From NCBI GenBank assembly GCA_947571655.1, contig CANOYR010000003.1, positions 3,408 through 67,407 of the forward strand: a stretch of 64,000 nt of DNA, written 5' to 3'. The notes under the pieces were generated by a model. The model saw only the letters and a list, made by a program, of their open reading frames with translations, did no database searches and was not told the origin of the DNA. Position 1 is the first letter of the stretch; every line of letters begins with the position of its first letter. Source of the stretch: an uncultured Bacillales bacterium (GTDB lineage Bacteria; Bacillota_I; Bacilli_A; RF39; UBA660). Shown piece after piece: positions 7,447 to 46,460 of the stretch. Position numbers and translations under genes: made by a program.

Positions 7447-7552
7447 CTAATATAGTGTATGAAAATGGGAAATGATTGTTTCCAAAAAGGACAAGTTAAA
7501 AAAATTTTTAAAAATAGTATGAAAATTGCAAAAGTGTGATATACTAAAAGTG

Positions 7553-7733
7553 TCTAAGAAATGCGAAACAGTCACATATAAAACCGACTAATATGACGAT
7601 ACGGGAGTCTTGATCAGTAATCTGTGTTGAATGCCTTTCCTTTTGGTAAAGGAATCCTAAGGGTTACGTATGGACACCCACCTGTAAAAATGCAGGTTTT
7701 ATCGCCGACTGAACCGCTTTCTTGGACTTTTTA
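7553..7733 (+). ncRNA. ssrS: Candidate 6S RNA (SsrS-like)
   Basis: An extended -10 (TGATATACT, 7537-7545) is followed by a ~180-nt noncoding segment. Its 5-prime end (AAGAAAGCG..CAGTC, 7557-7575) pairs with its 3-prime end (GACTG..CGCTTTCTT, 7706-7722) around a bulge, and a U-run follows. It lies directly upstream of a tcdA/yrvM-like gene, as B. subtilis 6S-1 does. Confidence 0.4.
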
Positions 7734-9762: not shown

Positions 9763-10380
9763 TTATAGTTTTCGATAAAGTCCGATTACTTTTCCTAGAA
9801 TAGTTACATTTGGTAGAATAATTGGTAGCATAAAGTCATTTTCAGGTTGTAAGCGAATATAGTCGTTTTCTTTATAAAAAGTTTTTACTGTTACTTCGAA
9901 TTCATCTGTCATCGCAACGACTGTGTCTCCATTATTTGCTGAGTTTTTTCGTTCTACTATAATGATATCTTTATCATAAATTCCAACATTAATCATTGAT
10001 TCTCCACTGACACGAAGGGCAAATACTTCTTTTTTTTGGGGAATTAAGTCAATGGGTACTGAAAAAAATTCATCTGGCATTTCGATTGCCTCGATTGGAT
10101 TTCCAGCTGTAACTTTTCCAAGTAGGGGAACTTCTATTGTTTTTTCATTTTCTGTTACATATTCATTGGGAACTAATAATTCAATCGTTCTGTTTTTAGA
10201 ATTATCCTTTTTAATATATCCTTTTTCTGCCAGTTTATTTAAATGAAATTGAGTGGTTGCAGGAGAAGATAATCCTACCATTTCTCCAAGTTCACGAACA
10301 GTAGGTGGGTATCCTTTTTTTGCTAAAATTTGTTTGAGTGCTTTTAAAATTTCTTCTTGACGTGTAGTTAATTTTTCCAT
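9763..10380 (-). CDS. lexA: LexA repressor
   Basis: N-terminal winged-helix region (PTVRELGEMVGLSSPATTQFHL). The C-terminal S24 peptidase domain carries the Ala-Gly cleavage site, the Ser nucleophile (VSGESM) and a Lys. Confidence 0.9.
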   Translation of the reverse strand: MEKLTTRQEEILKALKQILAKKGYPPTVRELGEMVGLSSPATTQFHLNKLAEKGYIKKDNSKNRTIELLVPNEYVTENEKTIEVPLLGKVTAGNPIEAIEMPDEFFSVPIDLIPQKKEVFALRVSGESMINVGIYDKDIIIVERKNSANNGDTVVAMTDEFEVTVKTFYKENDYIRLQPENDFMLPIILPNVTILGKVIGLYRKL

Positions 10381-26870: not shown

Positions 26871-28016
26871 ATGTTTATGAAAAAGAAAGATGATAGTTTA
26901 GATTATAAAAAATTAAATGAGGGAATTCGGATTGGTGTAACATTATTAAAAATTACACTTTTCCTTGCAGTTGTTTTGTTAACTTATATTAGTTTAAAGC
27001 TAATAGGAGAACTTAAAATATTTCCAACGATTGGAAAGCTATTAAAAATAATTTCTCCATTTTTTATAGGAATGGTAATTGCATGGCTTTTTGATCCAGT
27101 TGTGAAATCTTTAGAAAAAAAGAAGGTGAATCGACCACTTGGTATTGTATTTGTTTATGTTGTTTTTATTGCTGTGATAGTCTTGCTTTTATATATTATG
27201 ATTCCAATGGTAGGAAATCAGCTGAACGATTTGATTGTTTCAGCACCAGCATTTTTTAACGATGTAAAGGATTGGGCAGATGGTATTTTTGTGAGCTTAA
27301 GTAAATCCACAGGAAATGATTTTGTTGATATTCAAGAAAATATTTATGATGCGATTAATAAACTTGGAGAATCTTTTACCGTTGGTCTTCCAGCACAAAT
27401 TATGAGTGTGGTTAGTAATATTTTACAGGGAGGTTTAAATTTCTTAATTGGATTATTGGTAGGATTCTATATGTTGTTTGATTTTGGAAATGTGAAAGAA
27501 CATTTATTAACCTTTATTCCTAAAAAATATAGAGAGGATACAAGGGAATTGGTAGATCAGTTAAATGGTAATTTACGTAGTTATGTTGCAGGAACTTTAA
27601 GAATTATGCTTATTCTTTTTGCTTTTCAGTCTATTGCTTTAGCAATTGCCGGACTTAAAGCTCCAATGGTATTTGGTTTATTTTGTGCAGTAACTAATAT
27701 TATTCCTTATGTTGGTCCATATATTGGAGGTATTCCCGCTGTTTTGGTTGGATTTTCTATGGATCCAATGACTGGAATTTGTTCCTTGATTGCGGTTGTC
27801 ATTGCTCAGGTACTAGAAAGTTATTTCCTTCAACCACTAGTGATGGGAAAAACGATGAAACTTCATCCAGTAACTATCATGATTGGTTTATTAGTATTTG
27901 GAAGTTTCTTTGGAATTATTGGAATGATTTTAGCGACTCCGATTATTTCCATTTTTAAAACAATTGTATTATTTTTCAATGAAAAGTTCTCATTGATGGA
28001 ACGAATGACAGGTTAA
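26871..28016 (+). CDS. AI-2E family transporter (UPF0118 permease)
   Basis: Multiple TM helices and conserved core FAFQSIALAIAGLKAPMVFGLFCAVTNIIPYVGPYIGGIP. Confidence 0.75.
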   Translation: MFMKKKDDSLDYKKLNEGIRIGVTLLKITLFLAVVLLTYISLKLIGELKIFPTIGKLLKIISPFFIGMVIAWLFDPVVKSLEKKKVNRPLGIVFVYVVFIAVIVLLLYIMIPMVGNQLNDLIVSAPAFFNDVKDWADGIFVSLSKSTGNDFVDIQENIYDAINKLGESFTVGLPAQIMSVVSNILQGGLNFLIGLLVGFYMLFDFGNVKEHLLTFIPKKYREDTRELVDQLNGNLRSYVAGTLRIMLILFAFQSIALAIAGLKAPMVFGLFCAVTNIIPYVGPYIGGIPAVLVGFSMDPMTGICSLIAVVIAQVLESYFLQPLVMGKTMKLHPVTIMIGLLVFGSFFGIIGMILATPIISIFKTIVLFFNEKFSLMERMTG

Positions 28017-28099
28017 AAAAATTAAAAATAAAAGAAAGAGGAATCGTGTATTGAAAATTTGGCCTCTTTTTGATATACTCATTATAGTTTCAAAAAATA

Positions 28100-28315
28100 G
28101 GAAAGTATATCTGAAAAGCGAAGAAAAAGAGGAGTATGATAAGAGATTCTTTTTTAGAGAACTAGGGGTAGGTGAAACCTAGTAAAGAACCTTATAGGAA
28201 GCTACTTTGGAGTGAAATAATCCGGAGAAATCCGTTATCCAAAATAAGATCTAACAAGGATGGTACCGTGATTATTCGCTCCTGTTTAGGTCTTTTAATT
28301 TATGTAAAAGGAGAA
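28100..28315 (+). promoter_or_regulatory. T-box leader (alanine specifier) preceding the dNMP-kinase-like ORF and alaS
   Basis: AGAGA box at ~28158, a stem-loop CTAGGggtaggtgaaaCCTAG, a GCU-A candidate specifier at ~28204, and an AGTGA element. The T-box core AAGGATGGTACCGTG (28258-28272) carries UGGU, which would pair with the A73 discriminator of tRNA-Ala. A stem and U-run follow. Confidence 0.45.
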
Positions 28316-28320
28316 CCTGT

Positions 28321-28872
28321 ATGAGATTATATTTAATTAGTGGTCGAGCGAGGAATGGAAAAGGTACGATGAGTCAATTAATTCAAGAAGAATATGAGAT
28401 TCGTCATAAGAGAGTATGTTTTATCCAATTAATGAGACCTTTAAAATGGTTATTGCAAGATTATTTTGGTTGGGATGGAAAAGAAGAAACGAAGCCTAGA
28501 GAAAAATTGCAAAAAATGGGGACAGAACTGATTCGTGAACAGTTAGAAATGCCATTATATTTTATCGATCGTTTAACTGAGAATATCAAAATATTGGAAT
28601 CGTTTTATGATGTTTTTTTGGTAACAGATGTTAGGTTACCATTGGAAATTGAAACTTTAAAAAGTCGTTTTCCTGGAGCAGTTAGTATTCATATAAATAG
28701 AATCAATTATAAGAGTGAATTACATGAAAAAGAACAGGTTCATTATACAGAAGTTGCACTGGATGGATATCAGGACTTTGATTATGAAGTGGTGAATGAA
28801 TCTCTTTTAGAACTAAAAAAATCTGTAAAAGAAATAGTAAGTGAGGTAGAGAAGAATGAAAAAGATGAGTAG
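28321..28872 (+). CDS. P-loop deoxynucleoside monophosphate kinase-like protein (T4 gp1-like family)
   Basis: P-loop LISGRARNGKGT. The segments REKLQKMGTELI, LVTDVRLP...AVSIHINR and HYTEV follow the layout of T4 dNMP kinase. The stop overlaps the alaS start. Confidence 0.5.
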   Translation: MRLYLISGRARNGKGTMSQLIQEEYEIRHKRVCFIQLMRPLKWLLQDYFGWDGKEETKPREKLQKMGTELIREQLEMPLYFIDRLTENIKILESFYDVFLVTDVRLPLEIETLKSRFPGAVSIHINRINYKSELHEKEQVHYTEVALDGYQDFDYEVVNESLLELKKSVKEIVSEVEKNEKDE

Positions 28873-31537
28873 TACAGAAATTAGGAATATGTGGTATCGC
28901 TTCTTTGAGAAAAAGGGACATGCCAAAATGCCTAGTGCTTCTTTAATTCCACAAGATGATAAAAGTTTATTATGGATTAATGCAGGAGTTGCGCCATTAA
29001 AAAAATATTTTGATGGTAGCGAAGTTCCAGAAAATAGAAGAATTGTAAATATTCAAAAGTGTATACGAACGAATGATATTGAAAATGTTGGACTTACAGC
29101 AAGACATCAAACATTCTTTGAAATGATGGGGAATTTTTCGATTGGAGATTACTTTAAAGAAGAAGCGATTGAATTTGCTTTTGAGCTTTTGACAGGGAAA
29201 GAATGGTTTGCAATTCCAAAGGAAAAACTTTATTTTACGGTTTATACGGAGGATCAAACAGCCTACGAAAAGTGGTTGAGTTTGGGGGTTTCTCCAGATC
29301 ATGTTATAAAATTAGATGGGAATTTTTGGGAAATTGGAGAGGGTCCTTGTGGACCAGATTCTGAAATTTTCTTTGATCGTGGTGAAAAGTATGATCCAAA
29401 AAAAGATGCGCTTCAAAAATTTAAAAAAGATGAGGATCAGGAGCGATATGTAGAAATTTGGAATAATGTATTTAGTCAGTTTAATTCTAAAGAAAATGTT
29501 CCTCGTGAAAAGTATCAGGAACTTCCTAGCAAAAATATTGATACTGGTGCAGGACTGGAACGTTGGGCATGTATTTTTCAGGGAGTAGATTCTAACTTTG
29601 ATACAGATTTGTTTGTTCCTATTATTAAAAAAATTGAGGAATTAAGTGGTGTTTTATATAATGGGGAATCTTCCTTTAAAATCATTGCGGATCATATTCG
29701 TACGATTACAGTTGCTTTGTCTGATGGAGCTATTTTTGAAAATGTAGGACGTGGATATGTTCTTAGAAGATTACTGAGAAGAAGTGTACGAATGGGAAAG
29801 AAATTAGGGTTAAATGAACCATTTCTTTATAAGCTTGTTCATACAGTTATTCAAATTATGGAAGAATCTTATCCTACATTAAGAGAAACTCAAGGAGATG
29901 TTGAAACTCTTGTTTATGAAGAGGAACAATTGTTTCATAAAACGCTTGCTTCTGGAGAACGTAGGCTTTTAGAATTGATGAAAAAAGCAGGGAAAAAAGT
30001 AATTTCTGGAAGTGAGGTTTTCAAGCTGTATGATACTTATGGATTTCCTTATGAGCTTACTTTAGAATATCTAGAAGAAAAGGGATTTACAACCTCACGT
30101 GAAGAATTTGATCGATGTATGGAGGAACAGAAATTTCTTGCGAAGTCTTCAAGAAAGCAAGAAGCAAATATGAATATTCAAAATGAGGCACTTTTGTCTT
30201 TTCAAGAAGCAAGTGAATTTCAATATCATACTTATACATTGAAGGGAAAAGTAATTGGGTTATTTCATAAAGAAAAACAAGTGGAGACTTTAGAAAAAGA
30301 GGGGTTTGTAATTTTAGATAAAACTTGTTTTTATGCAGAAAGTGGAGGACAGGTTAGTGATACTGGGATGTTGATTAGTAATACTGTGAAGGCAAGAGTA
30401 CTTAGTGTGATGAAGGCTCCAAATGGCCAAAATCTTCATAAGATTAAGATTTTGGATGGAAAAATGAAACTGGGAGACACTTTAAAGGCAACTATTGATG
30501 AAGTACGACGTCATGAAATTGAAGTTAATCATTCTTCTGTTCATCTTCTTCAATATGCCCTTCAGAATATAATTAGTGATACCATTCATCAGGCGGGAAG
30601 TAAGGTAGATGAAGATTCTCTTCGTTTTGATTTTACTTATACTGGAAAATTATTAGATGAAAAAATCATAGAAGTAGAAAAATTTTTAAATCAATACATT
30701 GAAAGAAATATAGAATCTGAAACAGAGATTATGACTTTGGAAGATGCTAAAAAAACAAAAGCTATGGCGTTATTTAGTGAAAAATATAAAAACCAAGTAC
30801 GTGTGGTAACGATTGGAGATTCTAAAGAATTATGTGGAGGAACACATATTAAGAATACTTCAGAAATTAAAAAAATTGCTATTTTTAATGTAGAGTCTAA
30901 AGGAAGTAATATCTATCGAATTGAGGCAGTAACGAATGACAAAATTGAAGATAAATTAATGGAAGTTATTAAGCCATATAATGATGAAAAAATTAAGTTA
31001 TTAATGAAGGCAAGAAACATCATTAGTAAGGCGAAGGCAGAGGGGATTTTTCTAGACTTTGATATTCAAATTGATAATAAAGAACCAGAGAGCTATTGTG
31101 ATCTTGTTTCTGAGAGAAATGAATTAGAATATACTCAAGTAGAAGTAAAAGAGTTAGAAAAGAAGTATCAACAAGAAAAGCAAAAACAGGCTTTAAAAAA
31201 TACAGCTATTTATGAGGATAGAATTGAAGAAATTCATGGGGTAAAAGTGCTTTTAATGCAGTTAGAGGATCAAGATAATACAGTATTGAAAAATATTATT
31301 GATGATCTTTTAAATAATATGGGAAAAGGATTAATTTTGTTTGCTAATTGTAAGGGGGAAAATGTTAATTTTATTGCACGAAGTAACATTGATTGTAGTG
31401 CAGGAGATATTGTAAAAATGGCAAGTCAACTTTCTTCTGGAAATGGTGGTGGTAGTCAGACATTTGCACAAGGTGGCGGCAAAACTACGAAACATATTTC
31501 GGAAATCTTTGATAAAATTAGGGAACAATTTTCATGA
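28856..31537 (+). CDS. alaS: Alanine--tRNA ligase
   Basis: Class II catalytic core (FFEKKGH...LIP...WINAGV), an editing domain with HxxxH...CGGTH, and a C-terminal DHHA1-like domain. Confidence 0.9.
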   Translation: MKKMSSTEIRNMWYRFFEKKGHAKMPSASLIPQDDKSLLWINAGVAPLKKYFDGSEVPENRRIVNIQKCIRTNDIENVGLTARHQTFFEMMGNFSIGDYFKEEAIEFAFELLTGKEWFAIPKEKLYFTVYTEDQTAYEKWLSLGVSPDHVIKLDGNFWEIGEGPCGPDSEIFFDRGEKYDPKKDALQKFKKDEDQERYVEIWNNVFSQFNSKENVPREKYQELPSKNIDTGAGLERWACIFQGVDSNFDTDLFVPIIKKIEELSGVLYNGESSFKIIADHIRTITVALSDGAIFENVGRGYVLRRLLRRSVRMGKKLGLNEPFLYKLVHTVIQIMEESYPTLRETQGDVETLVYEEEQLFHKTLASGERRLLELMKKAGKKVISGSEVFKLYDTYGFPYELTLEYLEEKGFTTSREEFDRCMEEQKFLAKSSRKQEANMNIQNEALLSFQEASEFQYHTYTLKGKVIGLFHKEKQVETLEKEGFVILDKTCFYAESGGQVSDTGMLISNTVKARVLSVMKAPNGQNLHKIKILDGKMKLGDTLKATIDEVRRHEIEVNHSSVHLLQYALQNIISDTIHQAGSKVDEDSLRFDFTYTGKLLDEKIIEVEKFLNQYIERNIESETEIMTLEDAKKTKAMALFSEKYKNQVRVVTIGDSKELCGGTHIKNTSEIKKIAIFNVESKGSNIYRIEAVTNDKIEDKLMEVIKPYNDEKIKLLMKARNIISKAKAEGIFLDFDIQIDNKEPESYCDLVSERNELEYTQVEVKELEKKYQQEKQKQALKNTAIYEDRIEEIHGVKVLLMQLEDQDNTVLKNIIDDLLNNMGKGLILFANCKGENVNFIARSNIDCSAGDIVKMASQLSSGNGGGSQTFAQGGGKTTKHISEIFDKIREQFS

Positions 31538-32466
31538 ATTGTTTATATGTAATTGTATCTAATGATCAAGTTACGATTGATGCTCAAATAAAAAAACTTT
31601 GTCCTAATTCTAATGGTTTAGAACGTATTTTTTATGATTTGTTAGAAACTCCGATTGAAAGAGTTATTGAAGACTTGGATACTTATAATTTTTTTACGAA
31701 GAAAAAGGTAGTGATAGCAACGAATGCTACTTTTTTATCGAATGAAAAGAAAAAAGGAGAAATTGAGCATCAATTAAATTCATTTGAAAAGTATCTTAAA
31801 AATCCAAACCCAGAAAATATTTTAGTATTGATTACTGATAGTTTAGATAAACGAAAAAAAATTGTTACAGCCCTTTTAGAAAAAGCAACTGTTTTAGATA
31901 AAGAGCTTTCTTTAAATGTTGTTTTAAAAGATCAATTATTAGATTTTAAAATGGAACAACAAACTTTAGATTATTTGATTACTTATTGTGGAAATCAAAA
32001 GGAGAGAGTTTTAAAAGAAATTGAGAAATTAAAGATATATAAATGGGAAGAAAAAGAAATTACTATTTTTGATGTTCAAGAAATTGTCTTTAAAAATCTG
32101 GAAAATAATATTTATTCATTAGTAGATTCTATTTTGAATGCTAATAAGAGGGATTCATTTTCTAAGTATCAAGATTTACTATTACAAGGGGAACAAGCTA
32201 GTAGTATTTTGAGTAAACTCGCAAATAAAATTCGTTTAATTTATCAGGTAAAAATTTTATTAAATGAAGGATTTCGGGATTTGGAAATAGCGAAGCAATT
32301 AAATATGCATCCCTATCCTATAAAACTTGCTAGAGAAGCTTCTTATCAATATAGTGAAAAGTTGTTAATGGAATATCTTTTAAAGTTAGCTCAAGTAGAT
32401 TTAGAAATGAAAAGTGGAAATCCTGTAGCTAATCTCTCTTTAGAAGTTTTTATTGCAAGTATTTAA
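31534..32466 (+). CDS. holA: DNA polymerase III delta subunit-like
   Basis: N-terminal delta-fold pattern (IYVIV..., LETPIE..., FFTKKKVVIATNATF, LEKYLKNPNPENILVLI) and about 310 aa in length. It overlaps the alaS stop. Confidence 0.5.
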   Translation: MNCLYVIVSNDQVTIDAQIKKLCPNSNGLERIFYDLLETPIERVIEDLDTYNFFTKKKVVIATNATFLSNEKKKGEIEHQLNSFEKYLKNPNPENILVLITDSLDKRKKIVTALLEKATVLDKELSLNVVLKDQLLDFKMEQQTLDYLITYCGNQKERVLKEIEKLKIYKWEEKEITIFDVQEIVFKNLENNIYSLVDSILNANKRDSFSKYQDLLLQGEQASSILSKLANKIRLIYQVKILLNEGFRDLEIAKQLNMHPYPIKLAREASYQYSEKLLMEYLLKLAQVDLEMKSGNPVANLSLEVFIASI

Positions 32467-32886
32467 GTATTTTTAATGATTAAGAAGTGTATGATGAATA
32501 TTGTTTTGAAAATGAAAAAGAATGAAGGAATCGCATAAAACAAAACTGTCCTGAAGTAGTATTTAGTGAAATGGAAAACGAAGTATGATTTTGCTAATCA
32601 TTCTTTGTTTTTATATACAAAAAATTTTTAATTATTTGGAAAATCTTGATAAAACTTAAAAAAATAACTAAATAGTAAGAAAATTTTGAAGGTATTTCAA
32701 TTTTTTTAAGAAGCATTGATTTCGTATATTAATTTATGATATCTTAGGAATATTAGGAGAATATTTTTTATTTTAATTTAGTGAGTTTAACAAAAAGTTA
32801 ACAATTTTTATTTTTTTATGGAACAATAAAAAAAAATCGAGTATAATAAAATCAAGGAAAATGGATTATAGGAAAGGGATGCTTAT

Positions 32887-33603
32887 ATGTTAGATGTGAA
32901 TTTGATTCCAACACCACATATTGAGAGTGAGTTATCACAAATTGCTAAAAATGTAATTATGCCAGGAGATCCTTTGCGTGCCAAGTATATTGCCGAAAAT
33001 TTTTTAGAGAATGTTATTTGTGTGAATACAGTACGCAACTGTCTTGGGTATACAGGAATTTATAAAGGAGAAAAGGTTACTGTTTTTGCTTCTGGAATGG
33101 GAATGCCTAGTATTGGGATTTATTCTTATGAACTATTTAAGTACTATGGAGTTGAGAATATTATTCGAATTGGGACTGCTGGTAGCTATAGTAAAGATAT
33201 TCAAATCTTAGATATCATTTTATCTAAAAAATCGTATTCAGATAGTAGTTATGCAAAAGTTCAGAATGGATATGAAAAAAATTTTATTGAATCATCTGAT
33301 ATTTTAAATGAAAAAATTATAAAAACAGCAGAGAAGCAAAAAATAAATGTTAAGCAATTAGATATTTATTCTAGTGATGTTTTTTATAATGATATAGAAA
33401 GCAGTCTTCTTAAAAAATATCAATTAGAAATCGTTGAAATGGAATCTTTTGCTTTATTTCATAATGCTAAAGTTTTAGGAAAAAATGCGACTTGTCTTTT
33501 GACAATTTCAAATAATTTTAAAACGGGAGAAGAAACAACATCGAAGATGCGAGAACAGGGACTAAAAGAGATGATACAACTTGCGTTAGAATCTTGTTTA
33601 TAA
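32887..33603 (+). CDS. deoD: Purine nucleoside phosphorylase DeoD-type
   Basis: PNP/UDP-1 family motifs (IMPGDPLRAKYIAE, GTAGS, EMES). Confidence 0.8.
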   Translation: MLDVNLIPTPHIESELSQIAKNVIMPGDPLRAKYIAENFLENVICVNTVRNCLGYTGIYKGEKVTVFASGMGMPSIGIYSYELFKYYGVENIIRIGTAGSYSKDIQILDIILSKKSYSDSSYAKVQNGYEKNFIESSDILNEKIIKTAEKQKINVKQLDIYSSDVFYNDIESSLLKKYQLEIVEMESFALFHNAKVLGKNATCLLTISNNFKTGEETTSKMREQGLKEMIQLALESCL

Positions 33604-39401: not shown

Positions 39402-40184
39402 ATGAAGATTTACTTAGACCTAGTTTTTTTTATTAATTTTTTCTTTGACTATCTTCTTTTAATTACTGTAAATAAAATATTAAAAAGAAATGCAAAAAAG
39501 AAAAGAATCTTTTTAGGGGCACTTATAGGTAGTCTTAGTACCTTCTTTTTATTCTTTTCTTTTGATTCTATTGAATTGTTTCTTTTTAAGGTTTTTCTTT
39601 CGGTTCTTATGATTTTAATTTCTTTTTCTCATCATTCATTCAGGGATACTGTTATCAATTTGGCTTATTTATATTTTGTTAGTATTTTGCTTGGAGGCTT
39701 TCTTTACTATTTAAATTTAGAATTTTCATATGATGTTATCCGTAGTATATTTGTGAAGAAAGGTAATTCTAGAAATTTATTATTCCTTTGTCCTACAATC
39801 TTATACATTTATGTTAAGCAGAGTGCTTATCAAAAGAGGAGAAATGCAAATCTTTATTGTATTGAATTAGTTAGTGGAAGGAGGAGATATCAGTATACAG
39901 GTTATCTTGATACAGGAAATAGACTTTATGATCCTTATACGAAGCGTCCTGTTCATTTGTTGTATGATCCTTCCTATCAACCTTCTAAAAAACAAAAAGT
40001 ATTATATGTTCCTTATCATGGGGTTGGAGGAAGTGGAATTTTACCTTGCGTTTTTTTTGATAAGATGATTATTGATCAAAAAAAAGAAGTTTCAAAAGTT
40101 TTAATTGGAATTAGTAAGGAGGCTTTTCATATCGATGGAGTTCATATGATTTTACAAAGTGATGAAATTCTTCAAGATTCCTAG
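39402..40184 (+). CDS. spoIIGA: Sporulation sigma-E factor-processing peptidase SpoIIGA
   Basis: Multi-pass membrane N-terminus and a C-terminal aspartic protease motif GYLDTGNRLYDPYTKRPV, which matches SpoIIGA LIDSGNQLYDP. Confidence 0.8.
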   Translation: MKIYLDLVFFINFFFDYLLLITVNKILKRNAKKKRIFLGALIGSLSTFFLFFSFDSIELFLFKVFLSVLMILISFSHHSFRDTVINLAYLYFVSILLGGFLYYLNLEFSYDVIRSIFVKKGNSRNLLFLCPTILYIYVKQSAYQKRRNANLYCIELVSGRRRYQYTGYLDTGNRLYDPYTKRPVHLLYDPSYQPSKKQKVLYVPYHGVGGSGILPCVFFDKMIIDQKKEVSKVLIGISKEAFHIDGVHMILQSDEILQDS

Positions 40185-40259
40185 TCTTCGACATATTTCT
40201 AGAAAATGAATTTCTATAATAAAATTATCTATCATATATTAAAGAAAGGGAGGATAATC

Positions 40260-40949
40260 ATGATAGGAATATTTTTACTGATTATTTTATTTACACAAAA
40301 ACAGGATGCGTTATTTTATGTTGGAGCAGTTGATCGTTTGCCAGAACCATTAAAAAAAGAGGAAGAGGAATTTTATATTGAACTTTCTTGTGATGGTGAT
40401 GCTTTTGCTAGAGATAAATTAATTGAACATAATTTAAGGTTAGTTGTTTTTCTTGCTAAAAAATATGAAAATACGAGGGTAGATTTAGAAGATTTAGTGA
40501 GTATTGGAACGATTGGTTTAATTAAAGGAATTAAAACATTTAGTAAAGATAAAAATATAAAGTTAGCGACTTATGCTTCTAGATGTATCGATAATGAAAT
40601 CTTAATGTATCTAAGGAAAAATAAAAGAACAAGGACAGAAGTTAGTTTTGATGAATCTTTAAGTTTTGATGCAGATGGAAATGAGCTTCACTTAGAAGAT
40701 ATTTTAGGAACAGAACCAGATATTGTTACTAAGGGAATTGAAAAAGAAACAGAAAGAGATTTAGTAATGCAAGAGATTAATAAATTAGAAGACCGAGATA
40801 AAGAAATTATTATGCTTCGGTATGGATTGATGGGAAAGAAGGAAATGACACAAAAGGATGTTGCTGATCTTTTAGGAATTAGTCAGTCATATATTTCAAG
40901 GATTGAGAAAAAGGTAATTCGAAGACTTCAAAATTTAGTAAAATGTTAA
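40260..40949 (+). CDS. sigE: Pro-sigma-E (RNA polymerase sporulation sigma factor)
   Basis: Hydrophobic pro-sequence, then region 2 (NLRLVVFLAKKYENTRVDLEDLVSIGTIGLIKGIKTF, KLATYASRCIDNEILMYLRK) and a region 4 HTH. RBS aaagggagg precedes ATG 40260. Confidence 0.85.
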   Translation: MIGIFLLIILFTQKQDALFYVGAVDRLPEPLKKEEEEFYIELSCDGDAFARDKLIEHNLRLVVFLAKKYENTRVDLEDLVSIGTIGLIKGIKTFSKDKNIKLATYASRCIDNEILMYLRKNKRTRTEVSFDESLSFDADGNELHLEDILGTEPDIVTKGIEKETERDLVMQEINKLEDRDKEIIMLRYGLMGKKEMTQKDVADLLGISQSYISRIEKKVIRRLQNLVKC

Positions 40950-43201: not shown

Positions 43202-43316
43202 TTCTCTTTTTTTTATATTGAGTTCATTTCTTAAGGATTGACGGAATCTAAAAAATAGGATACAATCTGAATAAATTTTTAAAATCTAAAAATTGTAAAT
43301 GATAGAGGAGAAAGTT

Positions 43317-44000
43317 ATGGAAAATATGCTGAAATCACAAGTAAGAGGAAATTTAGTAGTTATTAGTGGTCCTTCAGGTGCTGGGAAGGGAAGTATTATT
43401 CAAGAAATTTTGAAGGATAATTTAAATGTTTGGTTATCAATTTCTATGACGTCTAGAAAAAGTCGTGATGGGGAAGTCAATGGAAGAGAGTACTATTTTG
43501 TAACAAGAGAGGAATTTGAGGAGGGAATAAAGAATCAAGAACTTTTAGAGTATACAGAATATAGTGGAAATTATTATGGAACTCCTCGTGGGAAAATTAA
43601 TGAGCATCTTCAATCTGGGCAAGATGTTATTTTAGAAATTGAAATCGAAGGTGCCTTAAAAATAAAGGAATTGGTAAAAGGGGCTTTATTTATATTTATT
43701 ATGCCTCCTAATATGAAGGAGCTAAAAAGAAGATTAGAAAATAGAAAGACAGAGACACAAGATAAGGTAATGATGAGATTTAAGCGTGCCTATCAAGAGA
43801 TAAATGAAGTAACAAAGTATAATTATGTTGTTGTAAATGATGAACTTAAAAATGCTGTAAATAAAGTAAAGTCTATTTTGCTTGCTGAGCGTTGTCGAGT
43901 AGATCGAATCGAAGAAATTTACATTGGAAATCAGGAAGAGCTTCTTCATGAAAGTCTTGTGGATAATAAGAATATTGTCAATTTAGAGAATAAAATATAA
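43317..44000 (+). CDS. gmk: Guanylate kinase
   Basis: P-loop ISGPSGAGKGS, then SMTSR...REGEVNGREYYFV and YGTP motifs. RBS agaggag precedes ATG 43317. Confidence 0.75.
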   Translation: MENMLKSQVRGNLVVISGPSGAGKGSIIQEILKDNLNVWLSISMTSRKSRDGEVNGREYYFVTREEFEEGIKNQELLEYTEYSGNYYGTPRGKINEHLQSGQDVILEIEIEGALKIKELVKGALFIFIMPPNMKELKRRLENRKTETQDKVMMRFKRAYQEINEVTKYNYVVVNDELKNAVNKVKSILLAERCRVDRIEEIYIGNQEELLHESLVDNKNIVNLENKI

Positions 44001-46125: not shown

Positions 46126-46269
46126 AAGGTGAATAGGAAGCTATGGATGATAGTTTCCTTTTTAATTTAGAGAATAGGTTTTGTTAAAACTTATGAAATA
46201 AAAAAGTTTTCTTGAATTTTTGTTAAAAGTGTTGTAAACTAATCATAGATTCTTAGAAAGAAGAGTAAC

Positions 46270-46460
46270 GAAATTTCTTTTTTTAGAGAGGATATGGTTG
46301 GTGAAAATATCTATTAGAAATGAGTGAAGACACTTTCTATTAAAAGAAACGTAATTCTGCGTTAAAGAAGATAAGCATAAGTAATTATGGAAATAAGGTG
46401 GCACCACGAATTGATATTCGTCCTTTGTAGTGTTACCTTTTTCTTTTTAATCAAGAAAGG
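46270..46460 (+). promoter_or_regulatory. T-box leader of the hisS-aspS operon
   Basis: AGAGA at 46286, GGTGAAA and AGTGAAGACAC elements, and a GACAC specifier region at ~46329-46333. The T-box core AATAAGGTGGCACCACG is at 46391-46407. A terminator stem AAGGTGGCAC/GTGTTACCTT is followed by a U-run. Confidence 0.6.

What the first reader, a model, noticed from the sequence alone, without database searches (positions are those of the whole stretch)
28100..28872. T-box (Ala) leader appears to control a T4-gp1-like dNMP kinase ORF translationally coupled to alaS
alaS T-boxes normally sit directly before alaS. Here the leader is followed first by a 183-aa P-loop protein, and the stop of that ORF overlaps the alaS start. 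The leader has an AGAGA box, a GCU-A candidate specifier and the core GGATGGTACCGTG, whose UGGU bulge matches the tRNA-Ala A73 discriminator. The P-loop protein reads LISGRARNGKGT...REKLQKMGTELI...VSIHINR, which resembles phage T4 deoxynucleotide monophosphate kinase. Coupling a nucleotide kinase to tRNA-Ala charging status is not a described arrangement.
Basis: partly seen in the sequence, partly recalled or inferred. Interest (0 to 1): 0.65.

Follow-up and report, generated by a model that had tools for sequence, protein, structure and literature searches.

The report
Alanine T-box operon led by nucleotide kinase
An RNA switch that senses uncharged alanine tRNA is followed first by a small nucleotide-kinase-like gene whose end overlaps the start of the alanyl-tRNA synthetase gene; this layout is conserved across many uncultured Bacilli and I found no paper describing it, but it looks like an operon-level arrangement rather than new biochemistry.

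Summary
Rfam finds a T-box at 28112-28286 (96.6 bits, cut-off 93), with specifier GCU (Ala) and a UGGU bulge. The 183-aa ORF (28321-28872) is a selected gene of the T4-gp1 dNMP-kinase family (Pfam DNMK 45.7 bits against a 27.1 cut-off; PHROG_139 1e-24; dN/dS 0.05-0.14). Its stop overlaps the alaS start by 17 nt, and the alaS ribosome-binding site lies inside the kinase's last codons. holA follows alaS with a 4-nt overlap.

In 79 of 80 species-level genomes that carry the kinase, alaS starts between 29 nt before and 3 nt after the kinase stop. 59 of the 80 have the Ala T-box upstream. In 28 of 29 readable metagenome loci, the position between the Ala T-box and alaS holds one or two NMP-kinase-fold genes. 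These come from three families: DNMK, a UPF0200/AAA_18 type, and Cmk; in some loci DNMK and Cmk are fused.

The leader is atypical. It has no Stem III. A covarying helix (28246-54 with 28286-94), followed by a U tract, encloses the antiterminator instead of competing with its 3' strand.

The likeliest reading is a tRNA-Ala-controlled kinase-alaS-holA operon with translational coupling. The kinase's substrate, the reason for the link to alanine, and the switching mechanism all remain inferred. I rate it a new variant of a known kind, of moderate interest.

The parts
28051..28079 (+). Promoter-like site (-35 TTGAAA, 17-nt spacer, extended -10 TG-n-TATACT) for the leader
   Evidence: Consensus scan, 10 of 12 matches with TG before the -10. 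It lies after the stop of the AI-2E transporter gene at 28016. It is a consensus match only.
28112..28286 (+). Ala-specific T-box leader: Stem I with AGAGA 28156-60, specifier GCU 28201-03, F-box 28232-37, antiterminator A1/A2 with bulge UGGUACC 28261-67. Stem III is absent.
   Evidence: Rfam RF00230, 96.6 bits against cut-off 93; the Stem III columns are gaps in the alignment. Homologous leaders with a GCU specifier (GCA in L069) occur in 59 of 80 related loci.
28246..28254 (+). [quoted passage not shown]
   Evidence: It pairs with 28286-28294. On 59 leaders, 94% of cells are paired, with compensatory changes at three pairs and 0 of 500 shuffles reaching the observed score. Columns AAGA.C..AA are nearly invariant.
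28286..28303 (+). 3' arm (UUAGGUCUU, 28286-94) of the outer helix, then a U tract (UUUUAAUUUAU, from 28293): a terminator-like end of the leader that encloses the antiterminator
   Evidence: The MFE fold is -15.1 kcal/mol, z -2.6. UUUU is invariant, and 6-8 of the 9 nt after the closing C are U in 59 of 59 leaders.
28321..28872 (+). 183-aa P-loop kinase of the T4-gp1 / DNMK family (Shine-Dalgarno AAGGAG at 28308-13)
   Evidence: Pfam PF21448, 45.7 bits against 27.1; PHROG_139 1.2e-24; 1DEK 2.2e-4; dN/dS 0.05-0.14; AF2 pLDDT 89.4. Invariant residues include G8, G13, K14, R60, Q64, R72, D103, R105, E109, H141, E144.
28843..28858 (+). alaS ribosome-binding site (GAGG 28843-46) and start codon (ATG 28856-58), both inside the last codons of the kinase ORF
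   Evidence: Read. The same geometry is seen in the window plus 75 loci: overlaps of 17 nt (33 cases), 4 nt (20 cases), others from -29 to +3; GAGG or GGAGG is always upstream.
28856..31537 (+). alaS (alanyl-tRNA synthetase, 893 aa)
   Evidence: Pfam tRNA-synt_2c 616 bits, tRNA_SAD, DHHA1.
31534..32466 (+). holA (DNA polymerase III delta subunit, 310 aa); its start overlaps the alaS stop by 4 nt. Probable last gene of the operon.
   Evidence: Pfam DNA_pol3_delta and DNA_pol3_delta_C. holA follows alaS in 50 of 80 loci. No terminator-like site was found between 28300 and 33000.

Best explanation
Window 28051-32466 is one operon of an uncultured, spore-forming member of the Bacilli. Its order is: promoter, Ala-specific T-box leader, a 183-aa DNMK-family P-loop kinase, alaS, holA.

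Shown by sequence and comparison: the leader is a T-box that reads tRNA-Ala (specifier GCU, bulge UGGU). The kinase is a real gene under purifying selection. alaS begins inside the kinase's last codons, with its own Shine-Dalgarno there. This junction and the gene pair are conserved across AlaRS identities from 90% down to 36%.

Inferred:
1. Uncharged tRNA-Ala lets RNA polymerase read through a U-tract terminator at 28286-28303, so kinase, AlaRS and the delta subunit rise and fall together.
2. Ribosomes finishing the kinase ORF help initiate alaS translation (translational coupling).
3. The kinase phosphorylates (deoxy)nucleoside monophosphates.
4. The link to alanine is co-expression, not shared chemistry. 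In this clade the position in front of alaS is a slot for NMP-kinase genes, filled in different lineages by DNMK, a UPF0200/AAA_18-type kinase, Cmk, or a DNMK-Cmk fusion.

The terminator is unusual. Its 5' arm is the purine-rich segment that replaces Stem III, and the helix encloses the antiterminator. My inference is that tRNA binding prevents termination by engaging that segment, as the Stem III purine string does in canonical T-boxes, and not by competing for the 3' strand of the antiterminator.
For: - T-box identity: Rfam 96.6 bits; specifier and bulge read from the alignment.
- Kinase family and selection.
- No + strand promoter-like site inside the kinase ORF, and no terminator-like site from 28300 to 33000.
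- alaS directly follows the kinase in 79 of 80 species loci. Junctions range from -29 to +3 nt, always with an SD inside the kinase ORF.
- Kinase and AlaRS identities correlate (Spearman 0.75, n=79).
- The Ala T-box lies upstream in 59 of 80 loci, with a GCU specifier throughout the 35 aligned leaders apart from GCA in L069.
- Synteny recD2 / AI-2E transporter / kinase / alaS / holA.
- Kinase slot: 28 of 29 readable metagenome loci carry DNMK and/or AAA_18-type kinase and/or Cmk between the Ala T-box and alaS. A DNMK-Cmk fusion sits directly before alaS.
- Other fusions point to nucleotide metabolism: DNMK with the 5'-deoxynucleotidase domain NT5C, and RNase H with DNMK.
- Outer helix: 94% paired, compensatory changes, 0 of 500 shuffles; U tract with 6-8 U of 9 in 59 of 59 leaders.
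- Canonical rules for comparison come from the review PMC7583486.
Against: - There are no expression data. Attenuation, co-transcription and coupling are all inferred.
- 21 of 80 loci keep the kinase-alaS pair with no detectable T-box, so T-box control is dispensable for the pair.
- The terminator helix is nested around the antiterminator, so secondary structure alone gives no mutually exclusive switch. The proposed tertiary competition is untested.
- The substrate is unknown. The model's best fold matches include animal phosphomevalonate kinase (TM 0.68-0.76) as well as T4 gp1. The protein also lacks about 100 residues that T4 gp1 has between the P-loop and the C-terminal half.
- Other T-boxes of the same type also have small, unrelated ORFs between leader and synthetase gene: an unknown ORF before thrS and an HD-domain ORF before serS. 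Passenger genes may therefore be a general habit of these genomes rather than something specific to alanine and kinases.
- A weak internal promoter inside the kinase ORF cannot be excluded by a consensus scan.
Confidence: 0.62

Rival explanations
1. The leader works at the level of translation, not transcription. The outer helix plus antiterminator, stabilised by uncharged tRNA-Ala, ties up the U-rich 3' arm (GGUCUUUU). Without tRNA that arm pairs with the purine-rich Shine-Dalgarno of the kinase and blocks initiation. This resembles the sequestrator / anti-sequestrator logic of actinobacterial ileS T-boxes.
For: - The nested architecture fits this logic naturally: more tRNA gives a more stable helix and a freer SD.
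- In 51 leaders, the predicted unpaired probability of the SD rises from 0.30 to 0.69 when the 3' arm is blocked.
- The 3' arm pairs slightly better with its own initiation region than with other initiation regions from the same loci (-5.3 against -4.6 kcal/mol, p = 0.006).
- Some cases are striking. L007 pairs GAUCU with AGAUC across a 55-nt spacer; the window pairs AGGU/ACCU plus CUUUUA/UAAAAG.
Against: - The effect is small and mostly compositional: shuffling the U-rich end still leaves the SD only 0.39 unpaired.
- The distance from the 3' arm to the start codon varies from 29 to 96 nt.
- U richness continues for 9 nt beyond the closing G-C pair, including unpaired positions that are invariant. 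That is the signature of an intrinsic terminator, not of an anti-SD.
- The same leader precedes different first genes with different SD contexts.
Confidence: 0.25
2. The kinase is a neutral passenger. A phage-type kinase gene landed once between the alaS leader and alaS in an ancestor. It then became locked in because the alaS SD and start came to lie inside it. There is no selective link between nucleotide phosphorylation and alaS or tRNA-Ala.
For: - Kinase and AlaRS divergence track each other (rho 0.75), as expected from a single ancient event and vertical descent.
- The overlap makes separation costly.
- The pair survives loss of the T-box.
- Other synthetase leaders in the clade also carry unrelated first ORFs.
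- GNAT or Fic genes have been inserted at the same place in some loci.
Against: The position is occupied by three different NMP-kinase-fold families, alone or in combination, in 28 of 29 readable loci, and includes a DNMK-Cmk fusion. Repeated recruitment of the same kind of enzyme to the same place is hard to explain by a single frozen accident.
Confidence: 0.3
3. The protein is not a nucleotide kinase. It would act on another phospho-acceptor, for example a phosphomevalonate-like small molecule, or a substrate tied to AlaRS or tRNA-Ala, and would be a functional partner of AlaRS.
For: - The top Foldseek hits include insect and human phosphomevalonate kinase (7xnd, 3ch4; TM up to 0.76).
- Pfam P-mevalo_kinase gives 22.9 bits.
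- O-phosphoseryl-tRNA kinase appears among the weaker fold matches.
- The tight, ancient linkage to alaS.
- A subfamily-specific invariant motif, DYFGWDG.EETKPR, lies in the region that differs from T4 gp1.
Against: - The P-mevalo_kinase score is below the family cut-off (33.8), while DNMK is above its own.
- PHROG_139 covers the whole protein at 1e-24.
- Fusion partners and slot-mates are all nucleotide enzymes: Cmk, NT5C, RNase H, an AMP-binding AdkA-like kinase.
- Distant family members sit in phage-like contexts.
- Nothing points to tRNA binding.
Confidence: 0.12
4. alaS is transcribed mainly from its own promoter inside the kinase ORF, so the T-box effectively governs only the kinase.
For: AT-rich coding sequence can hide weak promoters. 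In 21 loci the pair has no T-box, so other promoters clearly can drive it.
Against: There is no intergenic space. No + strand sigma-70-like site at 9 of 12 matches or better lies within 28321-28872. An Ala-specific T-box makes regulatory sense only if it reaches alaS. One locus (L202) has the same leader directly before alaS.
Confidence: 0.08

Closest known systems
alaS T-box leaders of Bacillus subtilis and Clostridium acetobutylicum (Liu, Grundy and Henkin 2015, PMC4695836)
   Same: GCU specifier, UGGU in the antiterminator bulge, and regulation of alaS by tRNA-Ala. As in B. subtilis, a IIA/B element with the F-box is present.
   Different: In those species the leader directly precedes alaS, has Stem III, and has a terminator whose 5' side is the 3' side of the antiterminator. 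Here a kinase gene comes first, Stem III is missing, and the terminator-like helix encloses the antiterminator.
Phage T4 gp1 deoxynucleoside monophosphate kinase (PDB 1DEK; Pfam DNMK PF21448; PHROG_139)
   Same: The P-loop GRARNGKGT aligns with T4 GVKRSGKDT. C-terminal motifs also align (R..LQ..GT, D.R...E, H.TE). Pfam is above its cut-off, and the fold match has TMq 0.69.
   Different: 183 aa against 241 aa: about 100 residues of gp1 between the P-loop and the C-terminal half are replaced by about 30. Identity to any phage protein in the collection is 30% or less. The gene is chromosomal, vertically inherited and tied to alaS. Its activity is untested.
Animal-type phosphomevalonate kinase (PDB 3CH4, 7XND; Pfam PF04275)
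   Same: Best overall fold superposition (TM 0.68-0.76, rmsd about 3 Å).
   Different: The Pfam score of 22.9 is below the 33.8 cut-off. Neither the operon context nor the fusion partners include an isoprenoid-pathway gene.
T-box operons that carry genes unrelated to amino acids, for example valS-folC and cysE-cysS-mrnC in B. subtilis (from my own knowledge, not checked here)
   Same: A housekeeping gene shares the tRNA-controlled transcript of an aminoacyl-tRNA synthetase.
   Different: In those operons the passenger lies downstream of the synthetase gene. Here it is the first gene and overlaps the synthetase start, and the same position is filled by different kinase families in related genomes.
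Translational (class II) ileS T-boxes of Actinobacteria (reviewed in PMC7583486)
   Same: A possible anti-SD / SD alternative, and a discriminator fold that persists when switched on.
   Different: Those leaders have Stem III and no U tract. Here a 9-nt U-rich tract follows a G-C-closed stem in every leader.

Membership tests
T-box leader (Rfam RF00230) | Covariance-model score at or above the curated cut-off | tested here: met
   96.6 bits against 93, E 5.8e-20, model positions 1-219. Related leaders score 95.8-110.6 bits or fall below the cut-off, but match an nhmmer profile at 1e-29 to 1e-49.
T-box leader (Rfam RF00230) | Specifier loop presenting a codon followed by a purine, matching the regulated synthetase | tested here: met
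   GAA-GCU-A at 28198-28204. GCU is conserved across the 35 aligned leaders, with GCA in L069.
T-box leader (Rfam RF00230) | T-box sequence forming an antiterminator (helices A1 and A2) with a 7-nt bulge UGGN-ACC complementary to the tRNA NCCA end | tested here: met
   AGGA / UGGUACC / GUGA-UUAU-UCGC / UCCU at 28257-28283. A1 is 100% paired and A2 98% paired, with compensatory changes.
T-box leader (Rfam RF00230) | Stem III hairpin flanked by conserved purines (5'-RRRNG-Stem III-AA-3'), part of the discriminator | tested here: not met
   The Stem III columns are gaps in the Rfam alignment. Only about 22 nt separate the F-box from A1 in the 59 leaders. The sequence AAG-AUCU-AA is conserved, which may be the purine string without the hairpin (the motif is taken from PMC7583486).
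T-box leader (Rfam RF00230) | Terminator whose 5' strand is the 3' strand of the antiterminator (mutually exclusive folds) | tested here: not met
   No such hairpin was found. Instead, 28246-54 pairs with 28286-94 around the antiterminator and is followed by a U tract.
T-box leader (Rfam RF00230) | Read-through or translation depends on uncharged cognate tRNA | not testable with these tools
   This needs in vitro antitermination assays or reporter assays.
Deoxynucleotide monophosphate kinase family (Pfam DNMK PF21448, T4 gp1) | Profile score above the curated cut-off | tested here: met
   45.7 bits against 27.1; PHROG_139 at 1.2e-24 over residues 1-178.
Deoxynucleotide monophosphate kinase family (Pfam DNMK PF21448, T4 gp1) | P-loop G-x4-G-K, and conserved basic and acidic residues of the C-terminal half aligned with gp1 | tested here: met
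   G8, G13 and K14 are invariant. R60, Q64, G67, D103, R105, E109, H141 and E144 are invariant in 30 homologues and align with gp1 residues in the phmmer alignment.
Deoxynucleotide monophosphate kinase family (Pfam DNMK PF21448, T4 gp1) | ATP-dependent phosphorylation of dNMPs | not testable with these tools
   Only indirect support: fusions with Cmk and NT5C, and slot-mates that are NMP kinases.
Animal-type phosphomevalonate kinase (Pfam PF04275) | Profile score above the curated cut-off | tested here: not met
   22.9 bits against 33.8. There is fold similarity only.
Translationally coupled gene pair | The downstream start codon overlaps or abuts the upstream stop, with the SD inside the upstream ORF, conserved among relatives | tested here: met
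   17-nt overlap, with GAGG at 28843-46. 76 of 76 junctions lie between -29 and +3 nt.
Translationally coupled gene pair | Downstream translation depends on upstream translation | not testable with these tools
   This needs a premature-stop or ribosome-profiling experiment.

The most novel reading that the evidence does not exclude
This reading has two parts.

1. In a large clade of uncultured Bacilli, tRNA-Ala charging would be used as a growth signal that sets the level not only of AlaRS but also of nucleotide-monophosphate kinases (DNMK, UPF0200-like, Cmk) and of the replisome subunit HolA. That would be a selected regulatory link between translation capacity and the supply of DNA and RNA precursors.

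2. The T-boxes of this clade (before alaS, and also thrS, serS and asnS) would represent a distinct expression platform. It has no Stem III, and its terminator captures the purine string 5' of the antiterminator instead of the antiterminator's 3' strand. The switch would then rest on tertiary competition rather than on alternative secondary structures.
Probability: 0.2. Interest if true: 0.7.

Novelty: new variant of a known kind. Interest (0 to 1): 0.5.

Why it matters
T-box regulons are usually taken to contain synthetases, amino-acid biosynthesis genes and transporters. Here a nucleotide-kinase-type gene is the first cistron of the alaS operon in many uncultured species, and related genomes fill the same position with other NMP kinases. 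If this is selected, it links the sensing of tRNA charging to nucleotide phosphorylation and replication in organisms with few other recognisable regulators. It also gives a concrete handle on an unannotated protein family that databases now call 'hypothetical'.

Separately, these leaders lack Stem III, which current structural work treats as indispensable for sensing the tRNA 3' end. Their terminator encloses the antiterminator. They therefore offer a natural test of how much of the canonical discriminator is really required.

If the arrangement is not selected, the case is still a clean example of a passenger gene locked into an essential operon by overlapping translation signals.

Tried and rejected
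- **Rfam at its gathering cut-off on 20 related loci** found only 3 T-boxes. The cut-off is too strict for leaders without Stem III, so I used a strict motif search and then an nhmmer profile of the leaders.
- **NCBIfam** gave no family for the kinase; only sub-threshold guanylate-kinase tails.
- **A canonical terminator** was sought with the consensus scan: none found.
- **A cryptic Stem III** (GUUAUC ... GAU-CU-AAC in the window) was considered and rejected by eye, because the pairing is lost in L008, L038 and L053 (alignment).
- **Folding leaders truncated before the 3' arm** gave no consistent alternative partner for the 5' arm.
- **SD sequestration by the antiterminator 3' strand** (CUCCU with AGGAG) cannot be told from chance, since both motifs are constrained for other reasons. 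Sequestration by the U-rich arm was tested and found weak.
- **Recent phage origin** is rejected: the best phage proteins are 30% identical or less.
- **Replacement of guanylate kinase** is rejected: a canonical gmk lies at 43299-44000.
- **DNA for the DNMK-Cmk locus** could not be fetched; only the gene table was returned.
- **Taxonomy lookup** of 'Candidatus Scybalousia' returned a Bacteroidales homonym and was not used.
- **Four literature searches** found no description of the arrangement. A fifth found nothing on T-boxes that lack Stem III.
Full report
**Observation.**
- Rfam's T-box model matches 28112-28286 on the + strand at 96.6 bits (cut-off 93, E 5.8e-20), over the whole model.
- From the sequence and that alignment: AGAGA at 28156-60; specifier GAA-GCU-A (GCU 28201-03); F-box CCGUUA at 28232-37; antiterminator AGGA / UGGUACC / GUGA-UUAU-UCGC / UCCU at 28257-83. 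The UGGU in the bulge fits the ACCA end of tRNA-Ala.
- A promoter-like site (TTGAAA, 17 nt, TG-n-TATACT) lies at 28051-79.
- The ORF 28321-28872 is preceded by AAGGAG. It overlaps alaS (ATG 28856) by 17 nt. The alaS GAGG (28843-46) lies in the kinase's last codons.
- alaS is confirmed by Pfam (616 bits).

**The ORF is a real gene.**
- It passes Pfam DNMK (45.7 against 27.1 bits), matches PHROG_139 'deoxynucleoside monophosphate kinase' over residues 1-178 (1.2e-24), and matches T4 gp1 (1DEK, 2.2e-4).
- 138 clusters at 90% identity match it in the large protein collection. All sources that name it call it 'hypothetical'.
- A profile of 30 members finds 7841 representative clusters at E<=1e-3 and 148 at E<=1e-30.
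- Thirty homologues share the invariant residues G8, G13, K14, R60, Q64, R72, D103, R105, E109, H141 and E144.
- dN/dS against six close loci is 0.05-0.14.
- The AlphaFold model is confident (pLDDT 89.4). Its nearest solved folds are animal phosphomevalonate kinase and T4 gp1 (TM 0.68-0.76). Fold alone therefore does not fix the substrate.
- Phage proteins are at most 30% identical, so this is not a recent phage gene.

**Operon.**
- No + strand sigma-70-like site lies inside the kinase ORF, and no terminator-like site lies between 28300 and 33000.
- holA (Pfam DNA_pol3_delta) starts 4 nt before the alaS stop.
- Upstream are an AI-2E transporter and RecD2/YrrC. From my own knowledge, this is the B. 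subtilis yrrC-yrrI-alaS neighbourhood.

**Comparative genomics.**
- One scan of 185,579 species genomes found 350 stretches encoding a relative. The best 80 loci are MAGs labelled Bacilli, Bacillales, 'Tenericutes', CAG:710 or CAG:302.
- In 79 of the 80, alaS follows the kinase directly. The exception, L079, has pgk-tpiA instead.
- In the window plus 75 loci, the alaS start lies between 29 nt before and 3 nt after the kinase stop (17-nt overlap in 33 cases, 4-nt in 20), always with GAGG or GGAGG inside the kinase ORF.
- The conserved C-terminal tail of the kinase (SEVEKNE..) is therefore largely the imprint of the alaS initiation signals.
- Kinase and AlaRS identities to the window correlate (Spearman 0.75; AlaRS 90% down to 36%), which fits long co-inheritance.
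- An nhmmer profile of the leaders finds the Ala T-box directly upstream of the kinase in 50 loci. In 9 more it lies 457-689 nt upstream, with one extra ORF in between (GNAT in L014, Fic in L029). In 21 loci it is not found, three of which have less than 230 nt of upstream sequence.
- T-box control is thus common but not obligatory for the pair.

**A kinase slot.**
- I scanned metagenome contigs with a pattern from the leader's 3' domain. This gave 120 stretches, of which 63 are true T-boxes.
- In 29 of these, both the Ala leader and the alaS start are readable. What lies between them:
  - DNMK then an AAA_18-type kinase: 11
  - DNMK alone: 7
  - the AAA_18-type kinase alone: 5
  - Cmk alone: 3
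  - DNMK followed by a Cmk match: 2 (a single 397-aa fused ORF in L178, the one of the two I read)
  - nothing: 1 (L202)
- The AAA_18 protein is a homologue of Sulfolobus SSO1041 (UPF0200, AdkA-like, solved with AMP; 5e-17). Cmk is unambiguous (249 bits).
- An independent look-up shows a 397-aa DNMK-Cmk fusion directly before alaS in an NCBI genome.
- Other fusions join DNMK to a 5'-deoxynucleotidase domain or to RNase H.
- More distant family members are not linked to alaS. One sits in a phage-like context.
- These data support a nucleotide-kinase function. They also suggest that the position before alaS repeatedly attracts or retains NMP kinases.
- The window's genome also has a canonical gmk (43299-44000), so the protein is not a simple substitute for Gmk.

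**The leader is atypical.**
- Stem III is absent.
- The segment AAGAUCUAA (28246-54), just 5' of the T-box sequence, pairs with UUAGGUCUU (28286-94), just 3' of the antiterminator.
- On 59 distinct leaders, 94% of cells of this helix are paired. Compensatory changes occur at three pairs (A-U/G-C; U-G/C-G/U-A; U-A/A-U). The whole structure beats 500 of 500 shuffles and all slid controls.
- The closing G-C pair is followed by an invariant UUUU, and 6-8 of the next 9 nt are U in all 59.
- The minimum-free-energy folds are this nested hairpin (-15 to -21 kcal/mol, z -2.1 to -3.4).
- In canonical T-boxes the terminator's 5' strand is the 3' strand of helices A1 and A2, and Stem III with its flanking purines (5'-RRRNG-Stem III-AA-3') is needed to hold the tRNA 3' end (PMC7583486; PMC4695836; PMC7778990).
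- Here the conserved AAG-AUCU-AA looks like that purine string with the hairpin reduced to four bases, and it is exactly what the terminator arm pairs with.
- My inference is that docking of this segment on the tRNA-bulge duplex (on state) and its capture by the 3' arm (off state) are the competing events. This is not shown.
- A translational alternative, with the U-rich arm acting as an anti-SD, receives only weak support.

**The same leader type occurs before other synthetase genes.** In the metagenome loci it also precedes thrS, serS and an asnS-like gene. There is often a small unrelated ORF between leader and synthetase gene. That tempers any claim that passenger genes are special to alanine.

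**Comparison and novelty.** Each component is a known kind: a T-box, a DNMK-family kinase, overlapping cistrons. Three things were not found in the searchable literature:
- a nucleotide-kinase-type gene as the first cistron of the alaS T-box operon;
- the clade-wide kinase slot;
- the T-box platform that lacks Stem III and has a nested terminator.

I class this as a new variant of a known kind.

**Limits.** There are no expression or biochemical data. I had one genome scan and one metagenome scan, both capped at their best or first rows. The metagenome sample was selected by a leader motif and the genome sample by the kinase, so neither measures how often alaS lacks a kinase in this clade.

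Noticed in passing
window 46249-46448: A second T-box (Rfam 93.1 bits, specifier GAC for Asp) lies before hisS (46470) and aspS (47849). It has a Stem III. Its predicted terminator pairs GUGUUACCUU (followed by UUUCUUUUU) with the T-box sequence itself (AAGGUGGCAC), that is, with the 5' half of the antiterminator rather than the 3' half.
   Followed up: partly
L089, L095, L105, L116, L136 (metagenome loci), about +70 to +500 from the T-box core: T-boxes of the same nested, Stem III-less type, with an apparent Thr specifier (ACU), are followed by an 81-141 aa ORF with a basic C-terminus and no Pfam match. In L089 and L116, the two loci read further, thrS comes next. L091 has a thrS leader with a canonical terminator instead.
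   Followed up: partly
L150, L180, L185 (metagenome loci): Ser-specific (UCU) T-boxes of the same type are followed by a 163-183 aa protein. In L150, the locus read further, it has a weak HD_4 match (21.6 bits, below the cut-off; the family includes (p)ppGpp hydrolase domains) and serS comes next. L176 and L199 have serS directly after the leader. A tRNA-controlled HD hydrolase would be worth a separate look.
   Followed up: partly
L014 2800-3294; L029 1976-2689: In nine genome loci one extra gene sits between the Ala T-box and the kinase. It is a GNAT acetyltransferase in L014 and a Fic/DOC-family protein in L029.
   Followed up: partly
L100, L106, L123, L154, L201, L204 (metagenome loci): A 183-187 aa kinase (AAA_18 / UPF0200-like, a homologue of Sulfolobus SSO1041, PDB 3LW7) sits between the Ala T-box (or the DNMK gene) and alaS. 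No source or family library gives it a function.
   Followed up: partly
L014-L019 region just after the U tract (for example L014 about 2790-2815): In one subclade the U tract is also the 5' arm of a second small hairpin (UCUUUUUC-UAUG-AAAAAG). This hairpin is present whether the next Shine-Dalgarno is adjacent or 60 nt away. Its role is unexplained.
   Followed up: no
L079 3968-5683: The only kinase homologue of the 80 not followed by alaS. It is followed by pgk and tpiA and preceded by a large secreted-looking protein.
   Followed up: partly
L030, L035, L039, L059: In these 'Mycoplasma sp.'-labelled MAG loci no in-frame alaS start could be found under genetic code 11, and AlaRS is only 36-40% identical. 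They may use code 4 (TGA read as Trp), which would also affect the ORF calls there.
   Followed up: no
L085 / L086 4044-5789: A 581-aa AlaRS lacking the C-terminal part follows the kinase, with IreB (YrzL) and RuvX downstream, as in the B. subtilis alaS operon.
   Followed up: no
window 7548-7732; 39402-40949; 9763-10380; 43299-44000: 6S RNA (Rfam 62.7 bits); SpoIIGA followed by a sigma-E-like sigma factor, so the organism is a spore-former and not Mollicutes-like; LexA; and a canonical guanylate kinase.
   Followed up: partly
window 28172-28324: A 50-aa GTG ORF lies wholly inside the T-box leader. Given the conserved RNA structure it is almost certainly not coding.
   Followed up: no
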